Source: Geosiphon pyriformis uo1
Lineage: Eukaryota; Fungi; Glomeromycota
Length of the DNA: 64,000 nt
Direction of reading: 5' to 3'
Assembly (NCBI GenBank): GCA_016748015.1
Contig: JAAOMT010000630.1
Location: 62,001-126,000 of the forward strand
In this document: positions 7,001 to 53,500 of the stretch, piece after piece
Numbering within the stretch: the stretch's first letter is position 1
Layout of the letters: each line of letters starts with the position of its first letter
Notes under the pieces: model-generated
The model's input: the letters and a program-made list of their open reading frames with translations, nothing else
Told to the model about the DNA's origin: nothing
The model's database searches: none
Position numbers and translations under genes: made by a program

Positions 7001-8033
7001 AAGAAATTTGAAGAGCTTGCAGAATTTACATTAGCTAAGGGTCTGTTGGAAGTAAAGCGAATCCAAGCGGTTAAAGAGGAGCACAGAAAGCACACTCGGA
7101 ATCTTTCCGTTTTAAAAGTGGTCGAGACAGAAACTAAAAAACCTTCCGCAGATGTGACAACTTTACAACCAATATCAGATGTAAATGAAAACACTACTTT
7201 TCGTCGACAAAATTCTCATGGGCAAGATGAGGAGCAGGAGGAACTCAATGAGAAAATAGAATTAATGAATACTTCTTTGCATTCTGATAGCAGTCATGGA
7301 AATCACAGTGAGAATGGAGAAATCGAAGAAGGACCAGGATATTTATCAGAAAAAGCTAGAGGGAAATTACCTGAAGGTGTTACCGCAGCGGATCGACGAC
7401 AAAGCGGGGATAGCACTAGGAGTAATAATATAATCCTTACACCTTTTGCTATTGGAAAATCTGGATTTGTTCCGACAGAAGATTGGGTGAGAAATGTAAT
7501 AGAGGCCTTAATCCTATATCTCATTTTAATTCTAATTTTTACCAAAACTTTCATAGGTATCTTCATGGCATTCCAATCTTCCTTTGGGTACTTTGCTTGT
7601 TTTGTTATCCGAACTTGTTCCTAAAGTTCAATCCTTGTGTGGATCCCAATCCTATTCAACTGAATACGAAGTTTTAGATTTTCTTCGATCTGTCACATTA
7701 GTCGGAATTCTTCCACCACCTCAGCCAATACTTACTCGTCAGTTTTTATGGTCAGAAGCAAGCGTAGTTTGGTTCTCAAGTTTATTATGGGGCCAGGTAT
7801 ACCTTGCCGGATCGAATTATTTGGGAGTTTTTAATGGAACCCATGTAAAACTTTTCCTGATCAAAACTACGGTTAAGGAGGATAAAATAAAAAACCCACT
7901 AGGAACGGCTGTGGGAGGTGTTCAGGGTGTTCTTGACCGGTTTACACCTAACACCACAAATGTTGCCTCTCATACAATCGCCAATAATCCTATCCACTCG
8001 TCTAATTCACCATCAACTACGCCGTCCTCATGA
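4015..8033 (+). CDS. HID1: HID1/Ecm30 family (high-temperature-induced dauer-formation) protein, multi-exon
   Basis: N-terminus MGATDSKLTFRKGVFRL (Gly2 myristoylation type), plus LNCIRVLTRIVPFIYE, LLCSLLNT, SKIHRSQDFQFL, LQTISSERNFGVKLN, EAFNNIVQYQF and C-terminal WFSSLLWGQVY...FNGTHVKLF. GT-AG introns throughout. Confidence 0.9.
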
Positions 8034-21422: not shown

Positions 21423-22410
21423 TGTTACTTGAATAGAGAAACCAATCTGAAGTTATGAAAAAACATCACCAAAATGTGACATAATACAGAATAGCACACA
21501 ATAATGTTGAATAATGTGTTATAACTTAGAATAGTGCAGAATAACACATTATAATATAGGATAACACAGAATAACATATAATAATACCAGATAACATATT
21601 ATAATATAGGATAATTAGTAATAACATAGAAAAACAAAGCAATAACAGAAATAACAAAGCAATAGTTAGCAATAATGAAACAATCAGAAACAATTCTGTA
21701 AAACCAAAAGAATATATAAAAGTGAGTAGTTGTAGAAGGTAGAAACAGTAGACAGATAGATACAAACCACTAGACAAGAATCAAATATTCTTACCCCTTC
21801 CATCATTTATTCTATTTCATCTTCATCTTCTAAAATAAATCAATTATTAAGAAATTATAATCACAAATTTATGTTCTCAAATTTTGTGAAATTTATGTGA
21901 ACTAACCATTGTTTCATACATTCATTCTAGAACAGATGCTCTTAGCATAACTGCTTTGAACTATTAACAATTTGGACCAATTGTTCTTGATTATAGTGAT
22001 TGACAATACTAATTTATCTTTTATTTTATTTTATTTTATTTTATTTTATTTTATTTTTTTCTCTTGTGAAGCAGCAACATAGTAAAATCAACTGTCTAGA
22101 AATAGACTTTGTGATAGCTTGGTAAAAGAGGGAAGCTTTTTCTAAGTTGTTAGATATTAATATTATCTTAATAGCTTACCAGAAAAGTAAAAAAACACTG
22201 TCAGACCCTAATGATTGTGCTTGTTAGCTCAAAGAAAAAAGCTCACTTTTATAAGAAGTTGCAATTAGTGAGAACCAAAACTCTGTGCCTTATAACCAAA
22301 GAACTTAACAGGTAAATTTACAACCAGTAAAATAAAATTTTTAGAGACTAATAATCAAGATTAAACAACTGAGATTATGCGAAACACACCTTACTAATAA
22401 TTGAAAGCAC
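21423..22410 (+). repeat. Element A 5' LTR (left part; remainder 32274-~32317)
   Basis: Starts TGTTAC, is colinear with 40412-41420 and contains a (TTTTA)n tract. Confidence 0.88.
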
Positions 22411-23394
22411 TGTTACTGGAGGTTTTTGGTCTCTTTTCTGTAATGTTGTTGATACTTATTTGCTGTGAATTCACATTTTCTGGATGTGGTTGAACCTCCA
22501 ATAACTGAATTTTTAACTTCAAATTATCTCCTATAATTTGAACTTGCTGGGCTTATGAGTGGAATGGCCAATTCCGTGCCAGTTGCTTTGTGTAGTTACG
22601 TTGTAGTAAACGTCAACTCTTTCCCAGAAATTGCTTGTCTGGAAGCTCACTAAAAATATGTAGTTACTTTGCTGTGAAAGTCAACTCTTCTACAGGAATC
22701 TTGTCTGTAGGTTACCCTAATGATTATGATAAGAAAATAAAAGAAAATAAAAGAAATGTAAAAGAAATAGAATTTTATCAAGAGAAACATTTTCTATTCA
22801 GGCATGGAGTCACTAACAGTTTACTGAAATTGGTAGCTAATCAATTTCAAAATATTAGTTGGGTTTTGGGGATTTTCCAAGTGCAATAATTAAAAAATTT
22901 GGTTTTTCAAATTATTTGATATTTATTTCTTTTTGTGTGTATAGGAATGGTTCTAAGTGATAAATCTAGAGTAAAATATTTTTTTCTCGAAGAAAGAAGC
23001 TCTTTTTTTATACAACTTGTCGTAACATTATTCTATGAACTTGAACTTTGCTATTTTCTACAATTTCGCTGAACTAAAGATACATTTCGGTGAACTACAA
23101 GTTATTTCTGCGAACTTATTAGATATTTTGATGAACTATCAATTATTTTGGCGAATTTCTATAAATTTCGGCAAACTTTTGAATATTACATAGTTTGGGG
23201 TATTGCATGATTGATCATTGCAATTAGGTTACATTTGTGTTGTGTACAATTTGGGTTATTAATTAAATGATAATTTCGGACATTTTTTGCTAATGTAATA
23301 AGTAATAATTTGAAATGATAATATATGCTAATTAATGATAGGAATTATAAGATAATTTCATGTTAAATGATATCTCTAATTTCGTCTGGTAACA
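22411..23394 (-). repeat. Element B 3' LTR
   Basis: Colinear with 31286-32269 and the same length. Differences in the part compared are transitions. Confidence 0.95.
23064..23178. repeat. About six imperfect 20-21 bp tandem units (core TTTCGGCGAACT) in the U3 part of the B LTR; also ~31939-32053
   Basis: tttcgctgaact / tttcggtgaact / tttctgcgaact / ttttgatgaact / ttttggcgaatt / tttcggcaaact at regular spacing. Confidence 0.75.
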
Positions 23395-24082
23395 TAACCT
23401 CCTCCTTAAGACTGAGCTCCGTTGAAGTCCAAGTACTGTCTGTTATTTCCAGATAATAATCCAAAATTATTGAAGAAATTTGGTCTGAAAATTGTTGAAA
23501 TTTCAGTTCTGTAAGCTTTCCAATGTATTGAATCTTCAAAGGTTGAAAAATTGGGTTTTGTAGTACGTTTTCACAGGTATGGAATAGGTCATAAAGTCTA
23601 AGAGCAGCTTTAAGCCTGTAGCGACTGTTTGTTGATCCAGCTGTTGTCTTGAATTCATTGTGGAGTTGTTTCTGAATAGCTTCTTTTGTGAGGTTTGCTG
23701 TTGTAAGTTCTAGTTTCTGTTCGTAGAGTGTTTTTCCAATGTGAAAATATCTATAGATTGGAAAATATTCAGTGTTTTTCTCATTGAGACACAGTTGAAG
23801 TTTTTGTTGAATTGTAGCATTTGGTGGAATACTAATCGGAGTGAGCATTAGGTTTTCTCTTAAAGCAAGCTTTAAAAGTTCTGGCAGGTGAATTCCAGTA
23901 TAACTTTTTGTGTTCTTTTTATACGGGTGATATTTTCGTGAATTTGGGGCTAAATTTGTAACTACTTCTGTTTGGGTATAATTAATGTGGTTTCTAGTAA
24001 CAGTAATGAATAATTCGGGTATTGTTTTTAAAGCTAACATTAGTTTTTGGAATAATTGTTGAATGTTTTAAGAAATAGTCAT
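23363..24082 (-). pseudogene. Element B ORF3, ~239 codons of unknown function, overlapping the PPT and 3' LTR
   Basis: ATG at 24082, one early TAA (probably CAA), then 225 aa open (24040-23363). Homologous remnants occur in A and D. Confidence 0.75.
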
Positions 24083-24198
24083 TATAAACAATTGAAAAAA
24101 AATAAAAATTATTTTTGGTGTATGGGTTTTTATGTTATTTTTGTTTTGTTTTTGTGAGATTGTTTCTAAATTATAAGAGAATAACTAGTAAAATTAAA

Positions 24199-25582
24199 TT
24201 AAGTGTTCAGGTTGGAAGGTTGTTCAATGACAACTATTGGTTCTAAGTTTCGGGGAATATCTTTAGGACTGACCAAAGGGAAATGTGTACCAATTTGTGG
24301 AATTAATGGTTCAAGATTGTTTCTGGAATGATAGTGTTTCAAACAATCTCCATGTACAACTTTTGCTAGGATTTTATCATCAAGTCTTAGCTTGTATGAT
24401 TTATTGTCTAGGACTTCATGGATAAAGAATGGTCCATCCCATTTATTTTCAAATTTTCCACTCCATTGTTTTTCAGCTTTAGTTCTGTGTAAAAGAACTT
24501 TGTTTCCAATTTTGAATTTATTAGTGACTGAAGGCAATTTGTCATCATGCTGTTCTTTTTGTTGAGCTTGGAAGTGTTCAATATGGGTGGCTGCTATTCG
24601 TCATTTTCCTTTCAATGTGCTAAGCAGAGTGTAGGCTCTTCGCTGAAGTATTTCTTGGAAATTGTTTTCATCAATCGGTTGTGCTGGGTATGTTTCCACT
24701 GTGAAACTGATTGGTAACGTTGCCATCCTTCCATAAGTTAAATCAAATGGTGTGTTTCATGGTATCTTGTTTTAATGTCCTATATGCTAGTAATACTGAT
24801 GGAATAAAGAGATCCCATTCTTGCTTAAAATTGGTTGAGACTTTGGTTAATGACTCACACAATGTTCTGTTAAAATGTTCCACAAGTCCGTTTGTTTGTG
24901 GATGGTAGGGCAAAGACAGAGGTCTTTTGACATTAAATTGTTCACAAATTTCTTGTATTAGGTTGTTCACAAAGTGTGTTCCCTGATCGGATAAAAGTTC
25001 AATTGGACATCCATATCTACAAATGATGTCTTCGTAGATGAAATTTGCTACTGATTTTGCATCTGCTCATTGAATGGCTCTGGCTTTAGGCCATTTAGTA
25101 AGATAGTCTACAGCTACTGTAATATAACAGTTTCCTTGAGTGGTGATAGATAGTGGTCTGACTAAATTAATACCAACTCTGTCAAAAGGCTGTCCAACTT
25201 TGATTGGATTTAAAGGTTCTATAGAGTAAGTTCCTTCTTTTTTTTGACAACTATCACAAGATTCGACATATTTGTGAATGTTTTTTCTCATTCGAGACCA
25301 AAAGTAGTATTTTAGTGTTCTTTGGGTGGTGCTATCTTTTCCAAAATGTGCTGATGAAGGATCCAAGTGCATGTTGTATAAAATGGTCTTTTTTTCTGGT
25401 TCTTGTATTAATCTAAGTGGTTTGGTTGGGTTTTTGAAATTTCAATAATAGATAATGTTGTTGTGTAGAAAATATTGTTTGGCTTGTTGTTGTAACTGAT
25501 GTTTTTTGTCTGGGAACCAATCTGTTGGGATTGTTAATGTCTCCAAATATTGTTTGAGATTGTTGTAGTTTTTGGAGTTCAT
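24199..25582 (-). pseudogene. Element B integrase (separate ORF, one small indel near 24750)
   Basis: MNSKNYNNLKQYL...HLDPSSAHFG...CDSCQ (HHCC), VDYLTKW, SDQGTHF, PYHPQTNGLVEHFN, WDGPF (GPY/F motif). No chromodomain. Confidence 0.9.
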
Positions 25583-25631
25583 TGTTTGTTGTTTTAATGC
25601 TGTTAATTCAAATGGGTGTTGGTTTTGTTTT

Positions 25632-28600
25632 CTAATTTTGCCTCATTCTTGAGAGACAATCAACATTGGTGTGGAGTTTTCCTGGTTTGTGGTGTACAAT
25701 GTATCAGTAATTAGCTAAAAATCCTGTCCATCGGGTTTGTTTTGGGTTCAGCTGGGTGTTTTTGTTTTGTAGCCATTTAAGTCCAATATTATCAGTAATA
25801 ATATCGAATTCTTTGGGTCTGAGGTAAAGATTGAAGTGATGTAGAGCCCAGATTACTGCTGTGGTTTCCAATTCTGTTGTGGGGTAGTTCTTTTCAGTTG
25901 GCTTTAATGTTCTACTAGCATAAGCAATTACTCGCTCATTTCCATTGTCATCTAACTGTGATAGGATGGCACCAAAGGCAGTATAAGAGGCGTCAGTTGC
26001 TAACTGGAATTGGTTGCTGAAATCTGAGTAGGCAAGGATTGGAGCTGTTGTGAGTTTTTCCTTAAATATCTCAAAGGCATTTTGGTGTTCTTTTGTCCAT
26101 TTGTATTCAACATTTTTAGTAGTGAGCTGGTTGAAGGGTTTTGCAATTTCTGAGAATCCTTTGATGAATTTTCAGTAATAGAATGCTAATCCAATAAATC
26201 CTCTTAATTCTGTGGTATTTTGTGGAGTCTTGAAGTTTTTGACAGTACTGATTTTTCTGGAGTCTGGTTTAATTTCATCTTTGCTAATAATGTGACCAAA
26301 AAAAGCTAAACTTGTTTTTCCAAAGTAGCATTTTTCAATGTTCAGTTTCAATTCTGCTTTCCATAATCGTTGAAAAACTTCTCGCAGGTGAATTAAATGT
26401 AGCTCGAAAGATGATGAATAAACATCAGTGTCATCAAGATAAATTACTACTGATTTCCAAAGGAGGCCTTTGTAAACAACATCCATGAGTCTTTGGAATG
26501 TTGCTGGTGCATTGCATAATCTGAAAGGCATTACATTGAACTCGTAATTTCCTCCTTGAGTGGTGAATGCTGTTTTGGGGCGGTCTTTGGAATCCATAGC
26601 AACTTGCCAGTATTCACTCTCTAAATCTAATGTTGAAAAGTATTTGGACTTTCCAAGGGCATCCAACATGTCATCAATTCGAGGAAGAGGGTAGGCATCC
26701 CCAATGGTGATACTGTTGAGTTGTTGGTAATCAACACAAAATTGTATCTTTCTATTTTTTTTTTTAACTAGAACCATAGGTGAGGCCCATGGGCTCATTA
26801 ATGGTTGAATAAGCCTATTGTTAAGCATCCATTGTACTTCTTTTCGGATAAATTGGTAACTTTCTGGAGCAACTCGATAGGCTTGTTGTCACCTGGGTTT
26901 GGCATCTCCTGTATAGATTTGGTGTTGAACCAAATCAGTTCTTCCTAAGTCATTGTTGTTTTCGGCGAAGATATCAGCAAATTCTGCAATTAGTTCTTTG
27001 AACTGGGTCTGTTGTTGTGGTTCAAGTTGTCCCATGTTGATTTGAGATAGTTTTTCCATGACAACATGGTAGTTTTCAGAGCTAGGGTTTGGGTTGATTT
27101 TTGGTAGTAAATGTCTAATAATTTTAGGAAAATCGGGGACTGTTTGGAGTAATTCTTGTTGAAATATATTACTGTGAATAACTCTAATTTCTAAATTATT
27201 TAATAAAATTATGGGGTAATTATTGGGATTGTAAAAAGTAACTTGGACTTTCTTTGTTCCTTCTGGAATATAAATGTTTGGGATTGAAATATTATGTTCC
27301 AAGCAGATTTGTTCATTGGACTCAAAAATTTGTTGTGTGGTTGTTGGCTTTGTGCAAATATAGATTTCCGGATGTTCTCCAAAGGGTGAGATAGTAATCG
27401 GTTGTGGAAGTTTGAGAATCTGGTGGGATTCATTCTGTGTATTAAGAGCTATATTAACTGGAACTGTGAATCGTCCAGTTGAACCAAAACCTTGGGTTCC
27501 TCTATTGCTTTTTCCTAATTGTTCTCTTTGATTGACTAGTTGTAAACCCGAAATGTTAATTAAAAGTAGGTAAATAGCTTGGGCAATTTTTTCAGCATGT
27601 TTGATCTTGAATGGTTTGTCAGTTTCATTTTGAAGCATCACTGTTATGTTTCCAGTATATTCAGCATCAATTATTCCTCCTCTGACATTGATTCCTTTGC
27701 TTGCCAGAGAGGACTAGGAGGCGATTTGAACCATTGCTCCTGGCAGAATTTTGAGTGCAATTTTGAGGTTGATTTTTGTAAGAGATTTGGGTTTGAGAAC
27801 AAGAGTATCCTTGCCTGGATATCTTAGGTCATATCCAGCATTAATTTCATGTGCTTTTTCGGGTTTTATTCTCTGTCCGTTGTTGTTGAAGTATTTAAGT
27901 TGTAAGGCAGGCTGATTTTCGATAAGATAGATGGGTGTTGTTTCAATTTCTTTCATTTCTTTAGGTTCTTCAAATTCAATTTCATTCTCATCATTTTTGC
28001 TGGGCAAGGGGATACTAAGAGCATAGCATTCAGGACACCACTGTTCATTGCAAGGCATAATGCATTCTTCACATAGCCTAATGTTCATTTGCTCTAATCA
28101 TTGAATTTGAGCTTCTTGGGTCGGGTAGGTGTAACTTGCAATTTGGTGATAGACTTCTACTTCATCTTCGTAATTGAATCCAGCTAATTCCATAGTGTAT
28201 TCAATGTATTCTGCTTTCTTCATTTGACAAACATCTTCTTTGGTAGCTCCATTAATTAATGCCATTGCTAAGTCGAAAATCATCTTGGCATCATAAGAGT
28301 AGTGATAAAGTTTGTTGAGAGCACTGTTGTATGCTGCATTAAAGGGTGTTCTTCTTTTTACTTTTTCTGAAATTGATAAAGCATATTGGCAGGTCTGATC
28401 GCAGACGCCTCCTCTTATTGCTACATCAATCCAATTGCATTCTTCTGGTAGCATATCTCCACAAGTTAAACAAGGAGTGTTGTCCCATTTTCTGCTTCTT
28501 TTTATTAGATGGCCCCATTGCTCTCTGTGGCAAGTCTTGCAGTAATAACAAGTATGATTCTCATATTCTTCTTCAGGTGAAATGCAGGCTCCCATTGACA

Positions 28601-31244
28601 ATAGTTTCTTGTGGCAGTCCTTACATTTAAGGGGAATATAGGGGCGTTGTTTCCTTGGTTCGGGTTTTGAGTAAAGTATATTCCATCCAGAGGTTTCGGG
28701 TTTAGTGTGTGGGGTAAAATGTTCTTGTTCTGTTTCATCAGCCCAGTTGGACGTTAATCCAAGAGCCATGAATGTTTCGATTATTGGTTTTTCTTCTTCT
28801 GGTTCAAATTCAAAAGCTGGGGCTTTTTCAGAGCATTTGTTGAATGTACCACAAATGGCAGGTATTCGGGCGTGTTGTCCTTGGTAGAAGATTGTTAACT
28901 CTTGTGTTTTCCAATTCAAATTAGCATTGGCTTTTTGAAGCCAATTATTTCCGACAAGAGCTTGGTACTGGGGTGTGTCCATTACAAGAACTTTGACTGG
29001 AATGGTGATTCCATCAAGAGTGAATAGAAAATTGTCAATTTCTCCTACTGGGGTCTTTTTCATGCCATCAGCAGTGACAATTACTGTTTGAGCTGGTCGG
29101 TCAACCTTTCTTTTTAACTGTTGCATTAATTGGTAGATAATAATGCTTCCAGCGGATCTACTGTCTAAGATCAAGTGAATTGGCTTTCCTTCTACTTCAG
29201 TTTCTGTGTACATTGCAGTGATGGCTTTTTGCTCATTAGCTGCTGCATTGCTAAGCAAGAATGGTGATTCATTTGCTTCAAATTCAAAAGGAAAGATATT
29301 AGAGAGATTGGCATTTTCAGCAATTCGGACTGGTGGAATAGTAGTGTGGTTATGAGAAGGGTTTCGTTGTTGTTGTACTGCAGCTCTACCTTCCGAGAGT
29401 GCAGTATGGTGAAAATCCTGTTCTTCTGACATTGTTAAATAACTGGATTGAGTGTGGTAATGGTTGGGTCTTGGTTGAGTGGTATTTTGGGGAACTAATT
29501 GGTTGTTCGAACTAATTCTACTGTTGTTTACTTGGTATTGGTTTTGTGGTGTGAATTGATTTTGTGTAATCAGTCTTCAAGCAGATACTTGATAATATTG
29601 TGTGGGTAGTTGTTAATATTGCTGTTGGATTAGTTGTGAGGCGGGCTGATAATAGTTATTTTGGTATTGGGGTCTTGGTGAATAGTAAGCTGGTGGTAAT
29701 GGTTGATAATAAGATTGTTGTGGTGGAGAGTAACGTTGATTACCTCTATTTTATTGGTCTTGTTGCAGCTTTCTGCAATCTCTTTTCCAGTAGCCAGAGA
29801 TTCCACAGTAATAGCAATTCTGGGGCTGGTTATTGGAAAGTGGTACAAAGTTATTTTGATTTCGTATTTGGGGTGGTTGATATCTTTGGGGTTGTTGTTG
29901 TTGTTGGTTGGTAAAATAGTTTTCGACCTTCTTTGTAAGTTGGTCAATTTTTTCCTCAGCTGCTGAGCTGGTTTCTCCAATTGTCAAATTTACAAGTTTT
30001 GTACAATTGACTTCTTCCATGGCCATTTCGTATCTTTTTGCATGCTGTATGGCAGAGTTTAAATCTTCTGGCGTGTGTGGGCGAACCTTTTTAATTAGTT
30101 TATCTTTTAGACCAGCAATAAATTGATCCAAGATTTGAGCATCGGAATAATAATTGTTTGTCTCAAGTTGGCGAATCCGTTTGAGAAGTTTGTTGAATTT
30201 CCCAATATAAGTCATAACGGATTCGGAGAGTTCTTGTTTGATATTTCGAAAACAATTGTAAAGAGTAATGAAGATATTATTGTCGGTAAACTATTCAAGG
30301 AAGGCTGCTTTGAAAGCATTCCAATCATTGAATGAGACAGCAAGGTTTTCAAACCATTCTCCTGCTGTTTCTTTAAAAAAATAGGGAATTGTTCTTAACA
30401 TTCTGGCAGTGTTCTATCCATTTGCATCTCCAGTTTTAGTAACTTGGTCGAGCCATTCTTGGGGACTGGTCTCAATATCTTCTCCATTGAATTCAGGGAT
30501 TTTTGCGATGTATGTTGTCATTTTGTCTTCTTCGTTTTCACTGTCTATTGATTCTTCTTTGGTTATTTCAGAGTTGTTTTCTTCATTTGCTGCTGTCTCA
30601 GAGTGTTCACTTTGATTTTCAGCTAGAAAATCAAGGAGATTGGAACTAGTTTGAAGGGGTTCTTGTTGTCTGGATTGACTTCTGAGTAATGTAAAATCTT
30701 CTGGTCTTGCAAATTGATTCAAGGGTGAATTAGGTGTTTGTGCTTGTACAAGTAAAGCTGAAAAAGGTGTGATAGTAAGTAGAAGTTTTGAGCTGGTTCT
30801 TTGTTCAGGTGTTTGTAAATGTTTGAATGATATTTTGGAAGTATTGGGTGTTGTGTGAACAGGCCGGTTATCTTTTTGTCTTTTGTTGCTACTGGTTTCA
30901 GGTTCAGATTCGAGTTCAAAAGCAAATTGTGCGTTTGTAGGATATCTTTCTTTGCAGAATCGAATGATATTATAATCAAGTTCCTCAAAATAAGTAGCAC
31001 AAGCTTCAGCACTAATGTTCTCTGATTCAGTGTTGGAATAGTGTAGTATGTTCTCAAGAAGATCTCTTTTAACTGTTGTAATGTTATAGTTCCCAAAGAG
31101 GTAGTCATTGATTCGATTTTCGATGTATTGAAAAAGTGTTTTCTTGAAAGCTATGATTCCATTGCGTATTTCAAATCGTTGTTTGCAGTGTGTATAAATT
31201 AATTGATAGTACTCTAAGGTTGTGATGTTTGAGGTAGTCACCAC
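25632..31244 (-). pseudogene. Element B Gag-Pol polyprotein, single frame of ~1870 codons with nonsense mutations
   Basis: Fragments starting at 31244, 30215, 29432, 28088, 27641 and 26828 are all co-frame. Motifs: capsid KIPEFNGED, CYYCGISGYWKRDC, LILDSRSAGS, dUTPase motifs, YPLPRIDD, IYLDDT, ATDASYT and NVDCLSRMRQN*. Confidence 0.92.
27475..27860 (-). other. dut: dUTPase domain within element B Pol (homologues: A ~35995-36380, D ~59115-59500, E ~51839-52019 partial)
   Basis: All five trimeric-dUTPase motifs in order: AGYDL, S*SS (RSS), GIIDAEYTG, KIAQ, RGTQGFGSTG. Confidence 0.92.
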
Positions 31245-31285
31245 TTTGAATTTGTTGCTGTGTTATTTCTGTGGAAAGCACCAAA

Positions 31286-32269
31286 TGTTACCAGAGGTTT
31301 TTGGTCTCTTTTCTGTAATATTGTTGATACTTATTTGCTGTGAATTCACATTTTCTGGATGTGGTTGAACCTTCAGTAACTGAATTTTTAACTTCAAATT
31401 ATCTCTTATAATTTGAACTTGCTGAGCTTATGAGTGGAATGGCTAATTCTGTGCCAGTTGCTTTGTGTAGTTACATTGTAGTAAATGTCAACTCTTTCCC
31501 AGGAATTGCTCATCTGGAAGCTCACTAAAAATGTGTAGTTACTTTGCTGTGAAAGTCAACTCTTCTACAGGAATCTCGTCTGTAGGTTACCTTAATGATT
31601 ATGATAAGAAAATAAAAGAAAATAAAAGAAATGTAAAAGAAATAGAATTTTATCAAGAGAAACGTTTTCTATCCAGGCCTGGAGTCACTAACAGTTTACT
31701 GAAATTGGTAGCTAATCAATTTCAAAATATTAGTTGGGTTTTGGGAATTTTTCAAGTGCAATAATTAAAGAATTTGGTTTTTCAAATTATTTGATATTTA
31801 TTTCTTTTTGTGTGTATAGGAATGGTTCTAAGTGATAAATCTAGAGTAAAATATTTTTTTCTCGAAGAGAGAAGCTCTTCTTTTATACAACTTGTCATAA
31901 CACTATTCTATGAACTTGAACTTTGCTATTTTCTACAATTTTGCTGAACTAAAGATACATTTCGGTGAACTACAAGTTATTTCTGTGAACTTATTAGATA
32001 TTTTGGTGAACTATCAATTATTTCGGTGAATTTCTATAAATTTTGGCAAACTTTTGAATGTTACATAGTTTGGGGTATTGCATGATTGATCATCGCAATT
32101 AGGTTACATTTGTGTTGTGTACAATTTGGATTATTAATTAAATAATAATTTCGGACATTTTTTGCTAATGTAATAAGTGATAATTTGAAATGATAATATA
32201 TGCTAATTAATGATAAGAATTATAAGATAGTTTTATGCTAAATGATATCTCTAATTTCATTTGGTAACA
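31286..32269 (-). repeat. Element B 5' LTR
   Basis: Followed on the minus strand by TT-TGGTGCTTTC (PBS). Confidence 0.95.
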
Positions 32270-32317
32270 GCACCAAACATTACTATTTTCTTACCCTACC
32301 AAGTTTACCTATAACAT

Positions 32318-35300: not shown

Positions 35301-38201
35301 ACAAATGGGACAATATATCATGTTTTGCCTGTGATAAGATTCTGCCAGATGAAGAACTATGGAATAATGTTCTCAGCTGAGGAGAAATATGCAATGAAGC
35401 ATGTTAATACACAATCTTGATCAATAATTGAGTACAAAAAGGAACTCCAATTGACAACACTTGGAAACAAGTGTTATGATAATTAGACAGGTATTTCCAT
35501 GATGAACACAAGATTTGGAGAATGATGAGTGCAAAAGCAGAAGGCACTACAACCAGAAAATTACTGGAAATTAAAAACAACTTTTTATTCCTTCCAAAAC
35601 CCAAATATATCATAACTTTTGATGTTTTTGGCAACATTAAAGACAACCCAGAATATTTCTATAAGCACTATTAGAACCTGGCACTAACTAGAAAAAAGCA
35701 GAAACAAAAACTAGCTGACCTAAACATAAAACTGTGTGATCATTGTTTGATCTCTTGCCACTTTCAGTATTGCAATGAATGCAATATTATGTTCAACCTG
35801 CTTCCAAGAAAACTATACCCAATCACCAAACTACTGAAATCTAAGGTAGAAGAGGAATTAATTACCAAGAACATGTCATTTCAAGATCCAACTGAAGATA
35901 CCAAAACAGAACAGTATCTTGTGTATCCTAATCTATCCAAAGAATTAGAATTAAAATGGTACAGTAACAATGAGGAAAAAATCTGTTCAGAAAGAGCACA
36001 TAATATTGATGCTGGTTTCAATCTATAATACTCTGGACAATCAATTATAGTTATAGCCCTATATTTCTTTGTAAAAATAGATCTTAAGATAGCATTAAAA
36101 ATTCCTGTTAGTACAATGTTACAAATTGCTTTTCGATCTAGTCTAGCCAAAAAAGAAATTGATGTAAAGAGAGGAATCATCAATGCTGGTTACATGAGAA
36201 ACATCATAGTAATGCTACAGAACAATTCGAACAAATCTTACAAAATAGAATTACAAAAAAAAATTGTCCAAGCTATTTTTCTACTTTTAGTCAAAATGCT
36301 CTAATTGACCCCAGTAACAACCCAAGAAGAATTAGGTCTCACTGTCTGAGAAATCAACAAGTTTAGATCAAGTGGAAGAGGAAATGTACCAATCAACTTC
36401 ATGGAGGAAAATAATAATCAGATAGAACTTATCTACACCAATACAGTCATTTTCATCCCCTCTTATTGACAATACATCCTCAAGATAAATCAAAAGATCT
36501 AAAAATCAAGCCCTGTTATTTGAAGCCAATCCTGAAATCTGTTTCTTAGCCAATGTTGCTAACTTATACCTACTGGCCAAAGCCCATAAACACTTTAAAA
36601 TCTCTATCCACAACCCCACAAAAGATGTAATTGAAATTCCCAAAGGGACTCTTATTGGTTCTATCTCACTGGACATTTAACATCTCAAAAAACCCCAGCC
36701 TATCCCAGATTTTGCACAATTGTTCTTATTTTGCAACATCACTTCACAAGTATAGAATCAGCCAAAAAAAAGTTACTTGTTTACACCAGAAGAAATCAGT
36801 AAATTGAATCTCAGAAACTTAAGTACTCTGCAGCAAATGCAACTCAAGGTTCTCTTGAATCAATATGCCAATGTTTTTGCCAGTGAAAATGAATTCAGAT
36901 GCACTGACATCATGAAACATCAGATTGATATGGAAGACACTTGACCTATTAAACAATGAGCTTATTAAGTACCCCAATTTGGCAACAATTTTATCAAACA
37001 AGAAGTCCAACAAATGCTTGACAATGGCTTAATCAAGAAATTGTTAAGCTCTTGGTCCTTTCCAGTAGTTCTGGTCACCAAGAAAAATGGAAAGATATGA
37101 TTTTGCATAATTACTGAAAATTAAATAGTGTCATCTGAGAAGATAGTTACCTCACTTCTCTCATCCAAGAAATCCTGGACAATCTAAGAAAAAAGAAATG
37201 GTTCTCATTATTAGACTTAGCCAGTAAATATTAGCAAGTCGAAATAGATTCCAAAGATAAAAAAAATGGCATTTACCACTTGAGATGGAAACTTTGGGTT
37301 TAATGTAATGCTTTTCAGACTCTGCAATGCTTCTGCCACATTTTAATGCCTTATAGATGTCATGTACAAAAGAATTCTTTGGAAATCAGTCATAGTTTAC
37401 TTAGACAACACAAATGTATTCTCTGAAACATTTGATAATTATCTGCTTTATCTTCAATAAGTCTTTGAATACCTTTAAAATGTTGGATTAAAACTCAATT
37501 CCAAGAAATGTTTCTTTGGAAAAACTGAGTTAAAATTCCTAGAACACGTGATTGGCAAAGACAAAGTTAAACCCAACCTAAACAAAGTCCAAAAAGTTAA
37601 AAATTTTCCAGTTCCAATTAACCTTCAAGAGTTATAAGAATTTTTAGAATTGGCAAGATACCACTGCCAATTTGTCAAAGGATTTTTAACTATAGCAAAA
37701 TCTCTTCACCACTTGTTGTCCAAATATGTGCCATACCTATAGAAAAAAGACCAACAGAAAGCATTCAACTATCTTAAACAGCAATTGATTACATCCTCAA
37801 TCTTAATTTACCCAAATTTCATTAAACAGTTCATTGTCGCTACAGACACCTTGAAAAATGCTCTAGGAACAGTCTTATTACAAATAGAACCAGACAATAG
37901 AGAACATTTAATTGCCTATACCAATTACAGCACTAGCCCAGCAGAAAAAAATTACAGCACAACAAATCTGGAATGTCTTGCCATTTATTGGGCCATACAG
38001 ACATGGAGACATTACCTCAGCTTGCTCTTTGATCTATATACTAATCATAAAGAACTTGTTTGGTTACTTAACAATCCACAACTGGAAGAAAAATATGTAA
38101 GATAAAGTACTTATCTGCAACAATTTCCACTCAAAGTCTATTACAAGAAAGAATTCAAGAACACCAATGCTGACAGTTTGTCGAAGATGTTACAAACCTA
38201 A
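32378..38201 (+). pseudogene. Element A Gag-Pol polyprotein remnant (N-extension, capsid, CCHC, protease, Cys-rich module, dUTPase, RT, RNase H)
   Basis: Motifs AKLKKFSGEKD, LILNSGSASS, CVDCGKKL, AHNIDAGFNL, IINAGY, VYLDNTNVF and NTNADSLSKM*. Many stops and some indels. Confidence 0.85.
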
Positions 38202-38211
38202 TTTTAGACCC

Positions 38212-39578
38212 ATGGACACACTCACTTATTAATAATTACATCAGTACTTATCAACACTATGTTTTAAGGAGATATTATCTCAACAGAAATAAAATACTAT
38301 ATGAAAACAAGCTTGAAAATATTTTATTCAAGACAACCAACTATATTAACAAGAACACCAAAACTGTTCCACCTCACAATAAGTTATAAAAAACAATGAA
38401 AAAGAAACTATATACATAGTATGCATTCTGATCCAACTGCAGAACACTTTAACAAAAATGCTACCCTTGAAAAAATACTAAATTTATACTATTGGCCAAC
38501 AATATACAAAGACATTTTTGAATACATGCTCAATTGTGACTCATGCCAGTAAAGAGGAGGAACAAGATCAACAGAACCACTTTGATCCATTTCAGTTGGA
38601 AATCTATTTGATAGAATTGAGATCAATTTGGTTGGACCTCTCTCAATTACATCTCAAGGAAATTGCTATATTGCTATAGCCATAAACTATCTTACAAAAT
38701 GGCCAGAAGCCAGAGCAATCCAAGTGGCTGATGCCAAAACAGTAGCCAAATTTGTGCATTAAGACCTAATTTGCTGACATGGATGCTCAAAAGAATTATT
38801 ATCTGATCAAAGAACACATTTTGTTAATAATACACTAACTAAACTAAGCCAATGATTTGGAATAAAGCAACATTTATTATCATCATATTACCCACAAACA
38901 AATGGATTGGTAGAACAATTTAATCAAACACTGTGCGAAGCATTAACAAAAATAAGTCATGAAAACAAACAAAAATGAGACTTATTCATACTTTTTGTAC
39001 TCTTTGCATATTAAACAGTGAAACAAAATATGACTCAGTTCATACTCTTCAAACTAGTCTATGAAAAAAAAGCTACATTATTGATTAAATGAGTAATACT
39101 ATCATACCCAACAGAAACAATCAACGAAGAGAATTTTGAAGCTATTTTACACCAAAAAATGTATCAGCTAATGAAAATGTTAAAAGACAATCAAAGAACA
39201 GCAGCTGACAATATTAATCATGTTCAAAAACAACAAAAAGAAAGACATAATAACTGCCTATTAAAACAACCAATGGAATTCAAGATTGAAGATCAAGTAC
39301 TGTTACATTGTACAAAAGCTAAGAAACAGTGAAAAGAAAAGTTTGACCCAAAGTGGAACAGTCTATTCTATATATACAAAGCTTTAGAAAATGGAGCTTA
39401 CAAATTATGATTAAAAGACAGAATTTTAAAAAAAATAGTGCATAGAAATTGGTTAAAAATTTATCATGTAAAACAAAAATTATCATCATCAGTACCTCAG
39501 CTAGGAACACAAATTTCATTAATCAGACCAGAAGATATACCATGAGATTTGGAACCAATTATTGTTATCAAAACATAG
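38212..39578 (+). pseudogene. Element A integrase (separate ORF)
   Basis: MDTLTY...MHSDPTAEHF...YYWP...CDSCQ...NYLTKWPEARAI...SDQRTHF...YYPQTNGLVEQFN...LEPIIVIKT*. Confidence 0.85.
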
Positions 39579-49190: not shown

Positions 49191-50374
49191 TTTGGGTTAA
49201 AATGTTTTTAGATTTGTCTCATTCATGACAGTCCATCAGCATTTCCATTTTTTTTTTGTAATGTACTATATAATTAAATAGTGAAAGTTCTATTTTCTAT
49301 CTAACATAGCAATCGGCTGCAAATTTTTGTTTCTAGATTGAAATCAATCTTTTATGATTGGTGTACACATCAAACTTTTGACTCAAGTATTCTTTTTATT
49401 TAGTAACAGCCCAATAAATAGCTAAGTGTTCCAGTGTTGGGGTTTTATAGTTTTTTTCTGCTGAATTTAAGCTTTTACTAATGTAAATTACTGAATGTTC
49501 TCTTCCATCCAGTTCTCTCTGTAATAATACTGCTCCTAATGCTTGACCAGATACATCAGTTGTGATTATGAATGGCTTGCTATGATCTGGATAGATTAGT
49601 ACTAAGGCTTGAATAAGCTTTCTTCTTAATATATCAAAAGCTTTTTGTTAAGTTTTAGTCTATTTATATTTGGTGTTTTTTGTTTGGAGTTGGTGTAGTG
49701 GTTGAGCTATTTTAGAAAAATCTTTGATAAAATAGTGGTAGTATCTAGCAAATTCCAAGAATGTTCTTAATTTTGTAAGATTATTTGGTACTGAAAAGTT
49801 CTTAACAATCTCGATCTTATTTGGATCTATTTTGATATCATTTTTGCTTACCACATGTTCCAAAAACTTAAGTTTTGTTTTGTCAAAGAAGTATTTGTTT
49901 GCATTTAATTTCAATCTTGCTTGTTTGAATTTTTCAAATACTTGTTAAAGATGATGCAGATAATTATCAAATGTTTTTGAGAACACATTGGTGTTGTTAC
50001 GGAATGGTTTTCTTGTTATATTTAATTGCTGATATCCCGCTTTAATTGCAATCAGTCTTTCGTGAGTTCCTCAATTCTATTTGTGTGATAATGTCACTGT
50101 TACACTGAAGGCTTTCTTTTTACTGTTGTGATGTAAGTTATTCTTTAATTCTTGATTGTTGTGTGTGTTTATGTACTTCTTCTCAGAGGCTGAACTGAAA
50201 TCTACCCACTGTCTGGGGTCTTCTCTGAGGCTATCCTTGCAATTGCCTGATGTGTTTCTCTAATCTAGAAACACAGAATGTTAATGGTCTTTAGCACTTT
50301 TCTAATTCTCACAATAAAGCTTTTATCAATTAGTAACAACGTGAATAATCTTGANNNNNNNNNNNNNNNNNNNN

Positions 50375-50595: not shown

Positions 50596-53500
50596 TTATG
50601 TGTGTCTCATTCTTGACAAACAGTCGGCATTAGCATTTTTGGTATTTTCTTTGTATTTGATAATATAATCGTATGGTGCTAACGTTTGTGACCATCTGGC
50701 GTATTTTTCTTTTAGCACTTTCTTGTTATTTAACCAGACCAGACCTCTATGATCTGTCATAATCTCAAAGGGTTGGTACTGTAAATATGTGTCAAAGTGA
50801 ACACAACTCCAGACTACTGCTAAGCATTCAAGTTCATGTGCTGTGTAGTTTTGTTCTGCCATACTGAGACTTCTGCTGGCATAAGCGATTACACGTTCTC
50901 TTCCATTATCATCTTTTTGTGACAGAATGGCTCCAAGTCCAGTTCCAGAGGCATCTGTGGCCAAAATGAATTTCTTGTTGAAATTCGGATAGATCATTAT
51001 TGGTGATTCAATGAGCTTTTGTCTAAGGTACTCAAAAGCTTTTTGTTGTGCTTCAGTCCATTCAAACTTCACATTTTTAGATAGTAGGTAATTAAGGGGT
51101 TTGGCGATGTTTGAAAAGTTTTCTACAAAGTGGCAGTAGTAAGATGTGAGTCCTAAAAAGCTTCTAACTTCTGAGACATTTCGAGGTACTGGAAAATTTT
51201 TCACTTTGTCTATTTTTGATGGATCTGGTTTTATTCCATCTTTTCCAACTACATGTCCTAAAAATGCTAGCTTATTTTTCCCAAAGAAACATTTTTCTAG
51301 ATTTAGTTTAAGTCCAGCGTGTCTCAATTTCTCAAAAACTTGTTGTAAATGTTGGAGATGATCCATGAATTTTGACGAGAAAACATTTGTATCATCCAAG
51401 TAGACAACAACGGATTGCCACAGGATTCCGGAGTAAATTACGTCCATTAGTCTTTGGAATGTCGCGGGAGCGTTTGTTAATCTAAATGGCATTACATTGA
51501 ACTCATAATTGCCATTTTGTGTTGTGAATGCTGTTTTATGTCTGTCCTTTGGGTCCATTTCCACTTGCCAGTACCCACTNNNNNNNNNNNNNNNNNNNNT
51601 TTGCGATAGGAATTTTTATCCATTGAGCTTTATCAGCTGGAATAAAAAGGTTAGTAAGTCCTATGAGAAACTGTTGGCAAGTTTCTGGGTAGGGCTCAAA
51701 TATTAGGTCTTTTTTTTTAATTATCCTTTTTATTCTTATTTCTGATTTTCCATATGGTAGGAGTGTGATGGACCACTCATTTTTAATTACTTCGCTTTTT
51801 TCCTCTATTGTTTCAGCAAAATTCGCTTCAATTCCTTTTCCTGTCGATCCGAAACCAAAAGTTCCTCTCGTTGTTTGTGACAATTCCTCACGATTTTCTA
51901 CTGGCACGAATTTCCCAATTTTTACCAATGATAGGAAAATTGCTTGTGCAATCTTTTCCTTAGATTCAATGGTATAAGGCTTTTCTGAATTGTTCTGTAG
52001 CAAAACCATCAAATTTCAANNNNNNNNNNNNNNNNNNNNTTGTATCATCCAAGTAGACAACAACGGATTGCCACAGGATTCCGGAGTAAATTACGTCCAT
52101 TAGTCTTTGGAATGTCGCGGGAGCGTTTGTTAATCTAAATGGCATTACATTGAACTCATAATTGCCATTTTGTGTTGTGAATGCTGTTTTATGTCTGTCC
52201 TTTGGGTCCATTTCCACTTGCCAGTACCCACTGGTCAAGTCCAGTGTAGAAAACCATTTTGCTCCTCCAAAAACGTCGAAGATTTTGTCAATTAACAGTA
52301 TTGGGTATGAGTCTTTGGTTGTTTTGCTGTTTAGTTTGTGATAGTCGACGCAAAATCTAATTTTTCCGTTCTTTTTCCTTACTAAAACAACTGGTGAGAA
52401 CCATGAGCTCATTGATGATTGTATTATTCCTTTTTCCAACATGCTTTGGACTTCTTCTCTGATAAAATTATGCTCCATTGGTGGGACATGGTAAGCGCAT
52501 TGTTTTTCAGGTCTGGCGTCTCCAGTGGGGATTTGGTGTTGAACCAAGTTGGTTCTTCTAAATTCGCCATTTCTTGAAAATATATCAGAGTATTTTAAAA
52601 TTAATGCTTTTAATTGTCGCTGTTGGTCAGGATCCATTGTTCCAATGTTTAATTTGGCCAATTCTTCTGGCGTAAATNNNNNNNNNNNNNNNNNNNNATT
52701 ATTCCTAAGTGCCCATTGTCGAAGTATCGGATGTCGGTCACCTGTTCTAGGTCGGTATAGGCTACAAATTTTTCTGACTCGGGACTGTCAGGTGAGTCTT
52801 GTTGATGTATTGATTGATTTTGAGACTGCTGATTCTCAATTTCCATTTTTCTTTCCAAGTCCCTTTTGTCTTGACACTCTTCACAGCACTGACTTTGGCA
52901 CAGGATGAGACAGTTTTCGCAGAGGTAAGTGTTGATTTGGGCGAGGTATTGTTCTTGCTCTTGTCGAATGGGGCATAGTTGTTGGTAGTAGTCCTAGAAT
53001 TCGTCCACTGGGTCGAACATGTTGTAGCTGGCAACTTTGTTGGCTACTTCGGCTGACTCTTTCCAACGTCGTATTTCTTCAGCGGTTCCTTCTCTTACTT
53101 TGGCTTGTGTGATGTTGTACAACTCGTCCTCGTCGTGTGAGTAGTGCTGTAGTCTTTTTAACGCTCTGTTGAATGCTGCTTCGAACGGCGTTCCTCCTCT
53201 TACCCAGTCACAGATGAGGATCATGTATTGGCAAGTTGCGTCACACGTTCCTCCTCGGCCTGGTAAGTCATTCCAGTCGCACTCTCTTGGTAACAGTTCT
53301 CCACAAGCGAGGCACGGTTCCTCATCCCATTTTCCGTGTCTTTCTGGGTAACCGTATTTTTCTTTGTTACAACGGTTACAATAGTAATGGGTGGGGTTTT
53401 TTGGGTCTTTGTCCAGTGTGCTGCACGCAGTCATAGACAAGAGTTTCTTCTTGCAAACCGAGCATTCTAGCTTTGGTCTGCGTCACTGGTGGTTTCTTCG

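What the first reader, a model, noticed from the sequence alone, without database searches (positions are those of the whole stretch)
25580..25660. Integrase is split off Pol into its own ORF in every family
Seen: Pol stops a few codons after the RNase H NADxLSR motif in B (LSRMRQN*, 25634-25632), E (LSRMRHT*, 50598-50596), A (LSKMLQT*, 38199-38201) and D (LS*MRQI*, 49210-49208). Integrase restarts at its own ATG after short spacers of 49 nt (B), 29 nt (E) and 10 nt (A), none a multiple of 3. The N-termini are similar (MNSKNYNNLKQYL, MNNHLYKNLSQYL, MDTLTY**LHQYL). The same stop position in four families with different spacer lengths and frames argues against decay, readthrough or one fixed frameshift. 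Known: Ty3/gypsy INT is normally cleaved from Pol, which ensures co-packaging. Inference: INT is made by reinitiation or from a subgenomic or spliced RNA and must be packaged in trans, loosely analogous to foamy-virus Pol.
Basis: partly seen in the sequence, partly recalled or inferred. Interest (0 to 1): 0.78.

Follow-up and report, generated by a model that had tools for sequence, protein, structure and literature searches.

The report
Retrotransposon integrase encoded as separate gene
Four decayed Ty3/gypsy retrotransposon families in this fungal window, like hundreds of intact relatives from mycorrhizal fungi and soil, encode integrase as its own gene just behind the stop codon that ends the RNase H gene; it is likely translated by ribosomes that restart after finishing Pol, which would uncouple integrase from the Gag-Pol protein.

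Summary
All four RNase H-integrase junctions in the window (B, E, A, D) have a stop codon at the same aligned codon, four residues after the LSR/LSK motif. Integrase follows in another frame after 49, 29 and 10 nt in B, E and A, starting at a Met in one shared alignment column.

This is not decay. In 798 contigs of a public DNA run laid on the B junction, no variant of 5% or more touches the stop or the ATG. An internal stop of the same copy reads CGA in most of the depth.

The layout is lineage-wide in Glomeromycotina fungi and soil metagenomes:
- 1058 stand-alone integrase ORFs were found.
- 56 of 56 soil loci have ATG at integrase residue 1.
- The Pol stop lies 1-31 codons after LSR.
- Spacers run from -20 to +365 nt, in all three frame offsets.
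- In 12 of 19 spacers the integrase frame is closed by a stop, so no fusion by frameshift or readthrough is possible there.
- The only three "fused" close relatives are gene models that splice out the junction.

Spacers are strongly ATG-depleted (4 observed against 21.9 expected), beginning at the Pol stop. This favours termination-reinitiation, which remains inferred. My literature searches found no description of this layout for LTR retrotransposons.

The parts
31274..32274 (-). Element B, 5' LTR
   Evidence: Local alignment with 22403-23399: 997 nt aligned, 95.4% identical, 43 of 46 differences are transitions
25635..31262 (-). Element B, single gag-PR-dUTPase-RT-RNase H frame (dead: 10 internal in-frame stops)
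   Evidence: Translation. Pfam Asp_protease, dUTPase, RVT_1 and RT_RNaseH
25632..25634 (-). Element B, Pol stop codon TAG, four residues after LSR
   Evidence: No variant of 5% or more in 798 laid contigs
25583..25631 (-). Element B, 49-nt A/C-rich spacer with no ATG and no GT
   Evidence: Spacer varies between subfamilies (loose ends at 25591, 25595 and 25633)
24323..25582 (-). Element B, integrase ORF starting at ATG 25582-25580, frame +1 to Pol (decayed towards the C-terminus)
   Evidence: Pfam Integrase_H2C2 and rve. 44-59% identity to the 120 listed stand-alone integrases
22403..23399 (-). Element B, 3' LTR
50599..51579 (-). Element E, RT-RNase H frame ending ...LSRMRHT
   Evidence: Pfam RVT_1 and RT_RNaseH.
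50596..50598 (-). Element E, Pol stop TAA
50375..50566 (-). Element E, integrase N-terminus from ATG 50566-50564 (29-nt ATG-free spacer at 50567-50595, frame -1), cut by the N gap at 50355-50374
36801..38198 (+). Element A, RT-RNase H frame ending ...LSKMLQT
38199..38201 (+). Element A, Pol stop TAA
38212..39077 (+). Element A, integrase from ATG 38212-38214 (10-nt spacer at 38202-38211, frame +1). Decayed, with a frameshift near 38400
49211..49998 (-). Element D, decayed RT-RNase H, with a frameshift in an A-run about 14 codons before the end (...NADGLS*MRQI)
49208..49210 (-). Element D, Pol stop TAA
48346..49107 (-). Element D, integrase, frame +1 to the Pol tail. Start codon no longer recognisable
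   Evidence: Pfam Integrase_H2C2

Best explanation
These are members of a large Glomeromycotina-centred clade of Ty3/gypsy LTR retrotransposons in which Pol ends at a stop codon right after the RNase H domain and integrase is a separate cistron with its own conserved AUG. That AUG is likely reached by ribosomes that terminate at the Pol stop, stay on the genomic RNA, scan the short AUG-free spacer and reinitiate (termination-reinitiation).

Shown:
- The stop and the ATG are fixed across copies and families.
- All three frame offsets occur.
- The INT frame is closed between stop and ATG in most relatives, so no fusion protein is possible there.
- The ATG-free zone starts at the Pol stop.

Inferred:
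- Reinitiation is the route to the AUG.
- INT is made in lower amount than RT.
- INT, not being tethered to Gag-Pol, would have to join the particle or the cDNA in trans.

A sister group of relatives (not the window's elements) carries a covarying stem-loop 8-20 nt before the INT AUG. This may be a dedicated restart or entry element.
For: 1. Same-codon stop in 4 of 4 window junctions from lineages only 42-63% identical in RT-RH.

2. Other copies of B.
- 798 contigs of run X1 were laid on 25556-25725 at 85% or more.
- None of the 13 listed substitutions (share 5% or more) lies in the stop (25632-25634) or the ATG (25580-25582).
- The only indels are 1 + 2 nt in the same 3 contigs, about 9% of depth, so the frame offset is kept.
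- Control: B's internal stop TGA at 26174 reads CGA in 45,644 of 68,069 depth.

3. Stand-alone integrases.
- 1058 stand-alone integrases of 153-489 aa were found.
- Of the best 120, 95 begin at the shared Met column and 3 more carry 9-17 extra residues.

4. Fused forms of 490-2000 aa.
- Only 3 have 47% identity or more.
- All 3 are gene models lacking the ADxLSR motif and the first 21-37 INT profile positions.
- Real fused polyproteins reach 40% at most.

5. Soil loci.
- Of 80 loci, 56 of the 56 whose match reaches INT residue 1 have ATG there.
- 30 of these show ADxLSR upstream, with the stop 1-31 codons later (5 or fewer in 14).
- Spacers run from -20 to +365 nt. Frame offsets 0, 1 and 2 occur in 8, 16 and 6 loci.
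- 11 are stop/start overlaps, including one TAATG.
- In 12 of 19 positive spacers the INT frame is closed by a stop.

6. Intact elements with long ORFs keep the layout: L014 (1621 aa, then 426 aa), L016, L025 and L046.

7. ATG counts in 26 loci (one search gives the same result with the three window spacers added).
- Spacers: 4 observed against 21.9 expected (0 of 3000 shuffles as low).
- Last 60 nt of Pol: 19 observed against 20.2 expected.
- Control stretches 3' of the INT stop: 31 against 26.2.

8. A purine stands at -3 in 48 of the 56 loci, counted by hand from the table.

9. In a quick ML tree, the 35 fused integrases sit on one side of a branch with SH-aLRT 98. The 45 split ones, the 3 window copies and the 3 gene models sit on the other.
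Against: - There are no RNA data of any kind, so translation from the full-length RNA is not shown.
- Known reinitiation after long ORFs needs stop and start within about 20-30 nt and an upstream structured element (review passages). Here spacers reach 163 nt, with outliers of 365 and 727 nt.
- The 45 nt before the stop show no excess structure: mean z is -0.10 for n = 29. The window junction folds give z of -1.34, -0.82 and +1.10.
- An ATG-free spacer would equally suit the 5' leader of a subgenomic mRNA that starts at or after the Pol stop.
- In B, E and A themselves the INT frame happens to be open across the Pol stop. For these three copies alone, a frameshift fusion is not excluded by sequence.
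- The 56 of 56 ATG count is biased, because local alignments reach residue 1 more easily when it matches.
- Some soil loci are near-duplicates.
Confidence: 0.55

Rival explanations
1. Integrase is a separate cistron but is translated from its own subgenomic mRNA. This would come from an internal promoter near the end of RNase H, or from a splice joining the 5' leader to an acceptor at the spacer, as retroviruses do for env and foamy viruses for Pol.
For: - It has the same conserved AUG, good -3 context and ATG-free leader.
- It would explain long spacers of 163-727 nt, which are awkward for reinitiation.
- The conserved stem-loop just 5' of the AUG in 20 of 80 relatives could mark a promoter or RNA 5' end.
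Against: - The ATG-free zone starts at the Pol stop, not upstream of it (19 against 20.2 expected in the last 60 nt of Pol).
- 11 of 30 relatives have the AUG 1-20 nt upstream of the Pol stop, the classic coupled layout.
- No RNA evidence was obtainable.
Confidence: 0.28
2. Internal ribosome entry: the spacer, or in the sister group the stem-loop, recruits ribosomes directly to the INT AUG on the genomic RNA, independently of Pol termination.
For: A covarying 6-bp stem with the conserved loop CARNGUGA lies 8-20 nt before the AUG in 20 of 80 relatives.
Against: - The window's elements, and the relatives in which INT directly follows RNase H, have no such motif (0 hits in the window).
- They show no significant structure.
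- ATG depletion of the whole spacer points to scanning.
Confidence: 0.1
3. Pol-INT fusion by programmed frameshifting (+1 in B, A, D and -1 in E) or by stop readthrough, with the conserved Met being an ordinary internal residue.
For: In B, E and A the INT frame is open across the Pol stop. In 7 of 19 relatives with a positive spacer a fusion is formally possible.
Against: - Frame offsets 0, 1 and 2 all occur (8, 16 and 6 loci).
- In 12 of 19 spacers the INT frame is closed by a stop.
- Spacers are unconserved in length and sequence.
- No shared slippery site is visible at the four window junctions read.
Confidence: 0.04
4. Artefact of decay: the stops and frame changes are random damage in dead copies.
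For: All four copies are dead. B has 10 other in-frame stops, and divergence is transition-dominated.
Against: - The same codon is hit in four lineages.
- It is fixed across 798 contigs, while a true decay stop is in the minority.
- Intact relatives keep the layout.
Confidence: 0.01

Closest known systems
Canonical Ty3/gypsy (Metaviridae) elements such as yeast Ty3 and fission-yeast Tf1 (layout recalled; fungal surveys seen as passages, PMC3248453 and PMC2864245)
   Same: LTRs, gag, protease, RT, RNase H and HHCC/DDE integrase in the RT-RH-INT order. A dUTPase between PR and RT, as reported for PosPlaTy3-5.
   Different: There, integrase is the C-terminal part of the Pol polyprotein and is released by the protease. 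Here Pol stops after RNase H and integrase has its own AUG.
Termination-reinitiation after long ORFs ('scenario 2'): calicivirus VP1/VP2, influenza B M1/BM2, hypovirus CHV1 UAAUG, victorivirus HvV190S, non-LTR retrotransposon SART1 (passages of PMC10275272; PMC2699510 seen in the search listing)
   Same: A long upstream ORF with the downstream AUG on, just before or shortly after its stop, out of frame. UAAUG and short overlaps occur in relatives. The sister group has an RNA structure downstream of the stop, as the review reports for SART1.
   Different: No TURBS-like upstream structure was detected. The window's spacers are 10-49 nt, and some relatives exceed 100 nt, beyond the roughly 30 nt that works in viral cases. 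It has never been shown for an LTR retroelement in the papers I searched.
Foamy-virus Pol, made from its own spliced mRNA rather than as Gag-Pol (recalled, no call)
   Same: A replication enzyme not tethered to Gag, which has to be recruited into the particle in trans.
   Different: In foamy viruses the whole PR-RT-IN is separate and a spliced RNA is documented. Here only integrase is separate, and no RNA data exist.
Caulimoviridae polycistronic translation by transactivator-dependent reinitiation (passage of PMC10275272)
   Same: Reverse-transcribing elements related to Metaviridae that translate consecutive, closely spaced ORFs from one long RNA.
   Different: These need a virus-encoded transactivator and have no integrase. 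No such protein was identified here.

Membership tests
Ty3/gypsy (Metaviridae) LTR retrotransposon | Long terminal repeats flanking the coding region | tested here: met
   B: 22403-23399 and 31274-32274, 95.4% identical over 997 nt
Ty3/gypsy (Metaviridae) LTR retrotransposon | Domain order PR-RT-RNase H-integrase, with RVT_1, RT_RNaseH, Integrase_H2C2 and rve | tested here: met
   Pfam hits in B, E, A and D and in intact relatives
Ty3/gypsy (Metaviridae) LTR retrotransposon | Integrase made as part of the Pol polyprotein (usual textbook layout, not a formal criterion) | tested here: not met
   Stop after RNase H and own ATG in 4 of 4 window junctions and in 30 of the 30 relatives where the RH end was found
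Termination-reinitiation after a long ORF (TURBS type) | Restart AUG within about 20-30 nt of the upstream stop, either side, any frame | tested here: inconclusive
   Window: 10, 29 and 49 nt. Of the 30 relatives, 11 overlap by 1-20 nt, 4 have spacers of 2-28 nt, and 15 have spacers of 39 nt or more (up to 365 nt)
Termination-reinitiation after a long ORF (TURBS type) | Structured element or 18S-complementary motif upstream of the stop | tested here: not met
   The 45 nt before the stop give a mean z of -0.10 for n = 29. 18S complementarity was not tested because no rRNA sequence was held
Termination-reinitiation after a long ORF (TURBS type) | Downstream ORF expression depends on termination of the upstream ORF | not testable with these tools
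   Needs a reporter assay
Programmed ribosomal frameshift (Ty1/Ty3 +1, retroviral -1) | Fixed frame offset, an overlap window open in both frames, and a conserved shift site | tested here: not met
   Offsets 0, 1 and 2 in 8, 16 and 6 loci. INT frame closed in 12 of 19 spacers. Spacers unconserved
Subgenomic or spliced mRNA expression (foamy-virus Pol, retroviral env) | A separate transcript or splice junction ending just upstream of the AUG | not testable with these tools
   No RNA run was listed for this sequence

The most novel reading that the evidence does not exclude
An ancient, highly successful clade of Ty3/gypsy retrotransposons has permanently uncoupled integrase from Gag-Pol. It spans Glomeromycotina fungi (Geosiphon-like host here, Rhizophagus, Cetraspora) and is abundant in soil metagenomes. 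It translates integrase by stop-restart on the genomic RNA, which would be the first such case among LTR retroelements. One sub-lineage has evolved a dedicated stem-loop at the restart site. Integrase would then be a trans-acting, separately dosed factor.
Probability: 0.45. Interest if true: 0.8.

Novelty: new variant of a known kind. Interest (0 to 1): 0.7.

Why it matters
Retroviruses and LTR retrotransposons are taught to deliver integrase into the particle as part of Gag-Pol. A whole clade that thrives without this link asks three questions.
- How is integrase dosed?
- How does it reach the cDNA?
- Can it serve other copies in trans? That bears on non-autonomous elements and on the repeat-rich genomes of mycorrhizal fungi. 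In R. irregularis, Gypsy elements are expressed and recently expanded (passages of bioRxiv 10.1101/2021.03.30.436303).

The finding also offers many natural variants of a possible eukaryotic stop-restart signal: overlaps, short and long spacers, and a covarying stem-loop.

It has a practical side too. Gene models in Cetraspora and R. clarus bridge the junction with false introns, so TE and gene annotation pipelines should expect a stand-alone integrase ORF.

Tried and rejected
- No whole genome is held for the window, so copies could not be aligned directly. I used contigs of one public DNA run instead.
- No RNA holder was listed for the sequence, so expression, transcript ends and splicing could not be examined.
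- Alternative genetic code: rejected. TAA, TAG and TGA all occur in frame in B at positions that are W, Q or R in relatives.
- Intron that fuses RH and INT: rejected for B and E, which have no GT between the LSR codons and the ATG. In A the only GT...AG candidate would be 19 nt long. Overlapping stop/starts in relatives also speak against it.
- HMMER search of 1.84 billion representatives with an RT-RH ORF (L016) did not single out the clade.
  - RT-RH is about 50% identical to ordinary elements.
  - Of 195 RH ends reached in the best 150 proteins, 157 are followed by INT in the same protein, 5 end within 25 aa, and 33 are other.
  - This is useful only as a control showing that fused forms are detectable.
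- Structure upstream of the Pol stop: none above shuffles.
- The stem-loop model R1 finds nothing in the window.
- B's open frame at 23363-24067 has no Pfam hit and no similarity to the ORF behind INT in L014.
- The careful ML tree did not finish. The quick tree is reported.
- Earlier-findings look-ups by place and by sequence gave nothing.
- Supplementary tables of PMC2864245 and PMC3248453 (element structures) were not opened. They could hold an unremarked split INT.
Full report
**What the window is.** It is AT-rich eukaryotic DNA for which no genome is held.
- It carries host genes with Hid1/dymeclin and KH-domain matches, a LINE-like RT/RNase H, and several LTR retrotransposons.
- The KH-domain frame (9426-10280) is 99% identical to a protein named for Geosiphon pyriformis. 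The next best matches are other Glomeromycotina (Ambispora 87-88%, Gigaspora about 80%).
- The host is therefore a Glomeromycotina fungus, not an animal or plant.

**The observation.**
- B ends ...NVDCLSRMRQN-TAG (25634-25632). E ends ...NADCLSRMRHT-TAA (50598-50596). A ends ...NADSLSKMLQT-TAA (38199-38201). D ends ...NADGLS*MRQI-TAA (49210-49208).
- Integrase (INT) follows in another frame: +1 in B, A and D, and -1 in E.
- The ATGs lie at 25582, 50566 and 38212, after 49, 29 and 10 nt. The Met stands in one column, 10 residues before QYL.
- D has lost a recognisable start and has a frameshift in an A-run just before its Pol tail.
- E is cut 192 nt into INT by one of seven 20-N gaps. These gaps are flanked by 100% identical duplicated segments, so that region is an assembly tangle.
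- These are 4 of 4 junctions in the window. Three other RT fragments have no junction.
- Pfam confirms RVT_1 plus RT_RNaseH before the stop in B, E and A. D's RT-RNase H rests on tblastn only, because the single-frame read of its frameshifted copy gave no Pfam hit. Integrase_H2C2 follows the stop in B, A and D, with rve in B and A.

**More than chance.**
- The four lineages are only 42-63% identical in RT-RH, yet they stop at the same aligned codon.
- All copies are dead. B is a complete 9.9-kb element with 1-kb LTRs 95.4% identical, and has 10 other in-frame stops in its gag-to-RNase H frame.
- The question was therefore whether the junction stop is just one more of these.

**Other copies of B.**
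- One public DNA run (X1) holds the sequence. At 80% likeness, 17,929 of its contigs lie on 2.8 kb of B, so the family is very abundant.
- 368 of 405 variable places are transitions.
- On the 170-nt junction, 798 contigs were laid at 85% or more.
  - 13 substitutions reach a 5% share. None lies in the stop (25632-25634) or the ATG (25580-25582).
  - The only indels are 1 + 2 nt missing in the same 3 contigs, about 9% of depth. This keeps the frame offset.
- Contigs that part from B do so inside the spacer (loose ends at 25591, 25595 and 25633). Those leaving at 25633 still read a stop.
- By contrast, B's internal stop TGA at 26174-26172 reads CGA in 45,644 of 68,069 depth (51 contigs).
- Decay stops are thus private to this copy, and the junction stop is fixed.

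**Relatives: proteins.**
- B's INT, read with X at its two stops, finds 1058 proteins of 153-489 aa. The best 120 are 44-59% identical.
- Those that carry a name are from Rhizophagus irregularis and R. clarus. The rest are from soil metagenomes.
- Of the 120, 95 begin at the shared Met column (M-[DEN]-x-x-x-Y-x-x-L-x-x-[YF]-L), 3 have 9-17 extra residues, and 22 start later in the profile.
- Among proteins of 490-2000 aa, only 3 reach 47-51% identity: two Cetraspora pellucida gene models and one from R. clarus. The next best reach 40% at most.
- All 3 lack the ADxLSR end of RNase H and the first 21-37 INT profile positions, so the predicted intron removes the junction.
- The R. clarus model is nearly identical in INT to a stand-alone R. 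clarus ORF.
- Truly continuous polyproteins, for example ...NADALSRMPVVSV...YLQTGELP..., are the distant ones.
- In a quick ML tree, the 35 fused integrases lie on one side of a branch with SH-aLRT 98. The 45 split ones, 3 window copies and 3 gene models lie on the other.
  - I used 45 of the 50 rows of A1 and the first 35 fused hits that passed a length filter. The careful search did not finish.

**Relatives: DNA.** A scan of soil metagenome contigs with an alignment of 50 intact integrases gave 528 confirmed stretches, of which the best 80 were kept.
- In 56 loci the match reaches INT residue 1, and all 56 have ATG there. This sample is biased towards matching first residues.
- In 30 of these an ADxLSR motif lies upstream in another or the same frame.
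  - The Pol stop comes 1-31 codons later, and 5 or fewer in 14 loci.
  - The stop-to-ATG distance runs from -20 to +365 nt.
  - 11 are overlaps, including one TAATG (L046). A second TAATG (L001) was seen only by eye and is not among the 30.
  - Frame offsets 0, 1 and 2 occur in 8, 16 and 6 loci.
  - In 12 of the 19 positive spacers the INT frame is closed by a stop between the Pol stop and the ATG. There, neither frameshifting nor readthrough can make a fusion.
- Intact elements keep the layout.
  - L014 has a 1621-aa gag-PR-RT-RH ORF, then a 426-aa INT ORF.
  - L016 and L025 have gag-PR, RT-RH and INT ORFs, with INT overlapping by 20 and 14 nt.
  - L046 has a TAATG overlap.

**How INT is likely made.**
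- In 26 loci (15 where INT directly follows RNase H, 11 of the sister group) the spacers hold 4 ATGs where 21.9 are expected (0 of 3000 shuffles as low).
  - The last 60 nt of Pol hold 19 against 20.2 expected.
  - The same 26 plus two more loci and the window's three spacers give 4 against 23.5 (0 of 5000). Equal-length stretches 3' of the INT stop hold 31 against 26.2.
- The ATG-free zone therefore begins at the Pol stop.
- A purine is at -3 in 48 of 56 loci (hand count), and +4 is G wherever INT starts MD or ME.
- This is what scanning from the termination site to the next AUG predicts. It fits the overlap cases, which resemble coupled stop/restart sites reviewed in PMC10275272 (passages).

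**Against reinitiation.**
- Viral restart works within about 30 nt and needs an upstream structure.
- Spacers here reach 163 nt and more.
- I found no excess structure in the 45 nt before the stop (mean z -0.10, n = 29) or across the window junctions.
- A subgenomic RNA beginning at the spacer would also want an ATG-free leader.

**Odds.** That INT is a separate cistron: about 0.9. Among the routes: reinitiation about 0.55, own mRNA about 0.28, internal entry about 0.1.

**A side finding in relatives.**
- In 20 of 80 loci, Pol carries a further roughly 290 residues after RNase H with no Pfam match (L014).
- In these loci the spacer holds a conserved motif, GGUGAAAGC-AAAG, followed by a 6-bp stem with loop CARNGUGA, ending 8-20 nt before the INT AUG.
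- On 16 sequences, 99% of cells pair and 5 of 6 pairs show compensatory changes. 0 of 500 shuffles reach the covariation score, and slid controls fall to 25-59% paired.
- A covariance model finds it in 20 loci, 4 of them not used to build it. It is always directly 5' of INT on the coding strand, and never in the window.
- The review notes that SART1 needs a structure downstream of its ORF1 stop. That is the nearest parallel.

**Comparison with what is known.**
- The elements are Ty3/gypsy by LTRs, domains and order, but fail the usual Pol-INT fusion.
- Full-text searches turned up no description of an LTR retrotransposon with integrase as its own cistron (listings). The terms covered:
  - a separate integrase ORF in LTR or gypsy elements;
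  - Rhizophagus or Geosiphon with Gypsy and integrase;
  - termination-reinitiation with retrotransposons.
- Passages read in two fungal LTR surveys describe one gag-pol ORF or two ORFs (PMC3248453; PMC2864245).
- Passages of PMC5911963 and of the R. irregularis TE preprint do not mention it. I did not open the supplementary tables.
- Seven earlier notes of this scan report the same stand-alone integrase in other fungal-type windows, mostly with ATGA or ATGAATAA overlaps.
  - They agree with this report but are not independent evidence. I saw them after my own tests.
- What this window adds:
  - non-overlapping spacers in four diverged families of an early-branching Glomeromycotina host;
  - the population check on the stop;
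  - the ATG-depletion boundary;
  - the stem-loop subgroup.

**Verdict.** The layout is a new variant of a known kind of element, and the translation route is inferred rather than shown.

Noticed in passing
L013, L014, L015, L017, L018, L021, L026-L030, L034, L037, L038, L040, L048, L061, L067, L071, L074 (e.g. L021:1132-1183): A conserved RNA motif lies directly 5' of the integrase AUG in 20 of 80 soil relatives. It consists of GGUGAAAGC-AAAG, then a 6-bp stem with an 8-nt loop CARNGUGA. 99% of cells pair and 5 of 6 pairs show compensatory changes. It is absent from the window.
   Followed up: yes
L014:301-5163 (residues about 1329-1621); also L028, L042, L029: In the stem-loop subgroup, Pol continues about 290 residues past RNase H. 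This part is Cys-rich (C-K-x-C...L-P-Y-G-T...H-x-C...E-M-D/N-P) and has no Pfam match.
   Followed up: partly
L014:6576-7061, L028:5842-6330; window 23363-24067 (-): A further ORF lies behind integrase. The L014 and L028 ORFs (162 and 163 aa) are 24% identical (E 4e-9) and have no Pfam hit. B has a 234-codon open frame between INT and its 3' LTR, with no Pfam hit and no similarity to them.
   Followed up: partly
window 26892-27713 (-) and 58731-59327 (-): A dUTPase domain lies between protease and RT in B's Pol. A second, weaker, sub-threshold dUTPase match lies in another copy. This is the same position as reported for PosPlaTy3-5 of Postia placenta (PMC2864245).
   Followed up: partly
window 50140-57571: Seven runs of exactly 20 N are flanked by 100% identical duplicated segments (e.g. 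51387-51579 = 52040-52232 and 51600-51871 = 56676-56947). The region is a scaffolding tangle, so element E's overall structure cannot be trusted.
   Followed up: partly
window 22403-32274 and run X1: Divergence between copies is almost all transitions: 368 of 405 variable places, and 43 of 46 differences between B's LTRs. At least one of B's in-frame stops is CGA to TGA (26174). This fits deamination-type decay (methylation-linked or RIP-like).
   Followed up: partly
P0121, P0123 (Cetraspora pellucida), P0122 (Rhizophagus clarus): Public gene models join RT/RNase H or gag to integrase through predicted introns that delete the end of RNase H and the start of integrase. These are annotation artefacts caused by the split layout.
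   Followed up: yes
L016:2881-2885, L025:3289-3293, L069:2925-2929; L046:3132-3144: Relatives differ at the gag-PR/RT boundary. L016, L025 and L069 have a single in-frame stop, which may be readthrough. L046 has overlapping frames. L014, and B in the window, have one continuous frame.
   Followed up: no
window 5384-7621 (+), 9426-10280 (+), 13888-15819 (-): Host genes (Hid1/dymeclin-like exons, and a KH-domain protein 99% identical to a Geosiphon pyriformis entry) and a LINE-like RT plus RNase H lie beside the LTR elements.
   Followed up: partly
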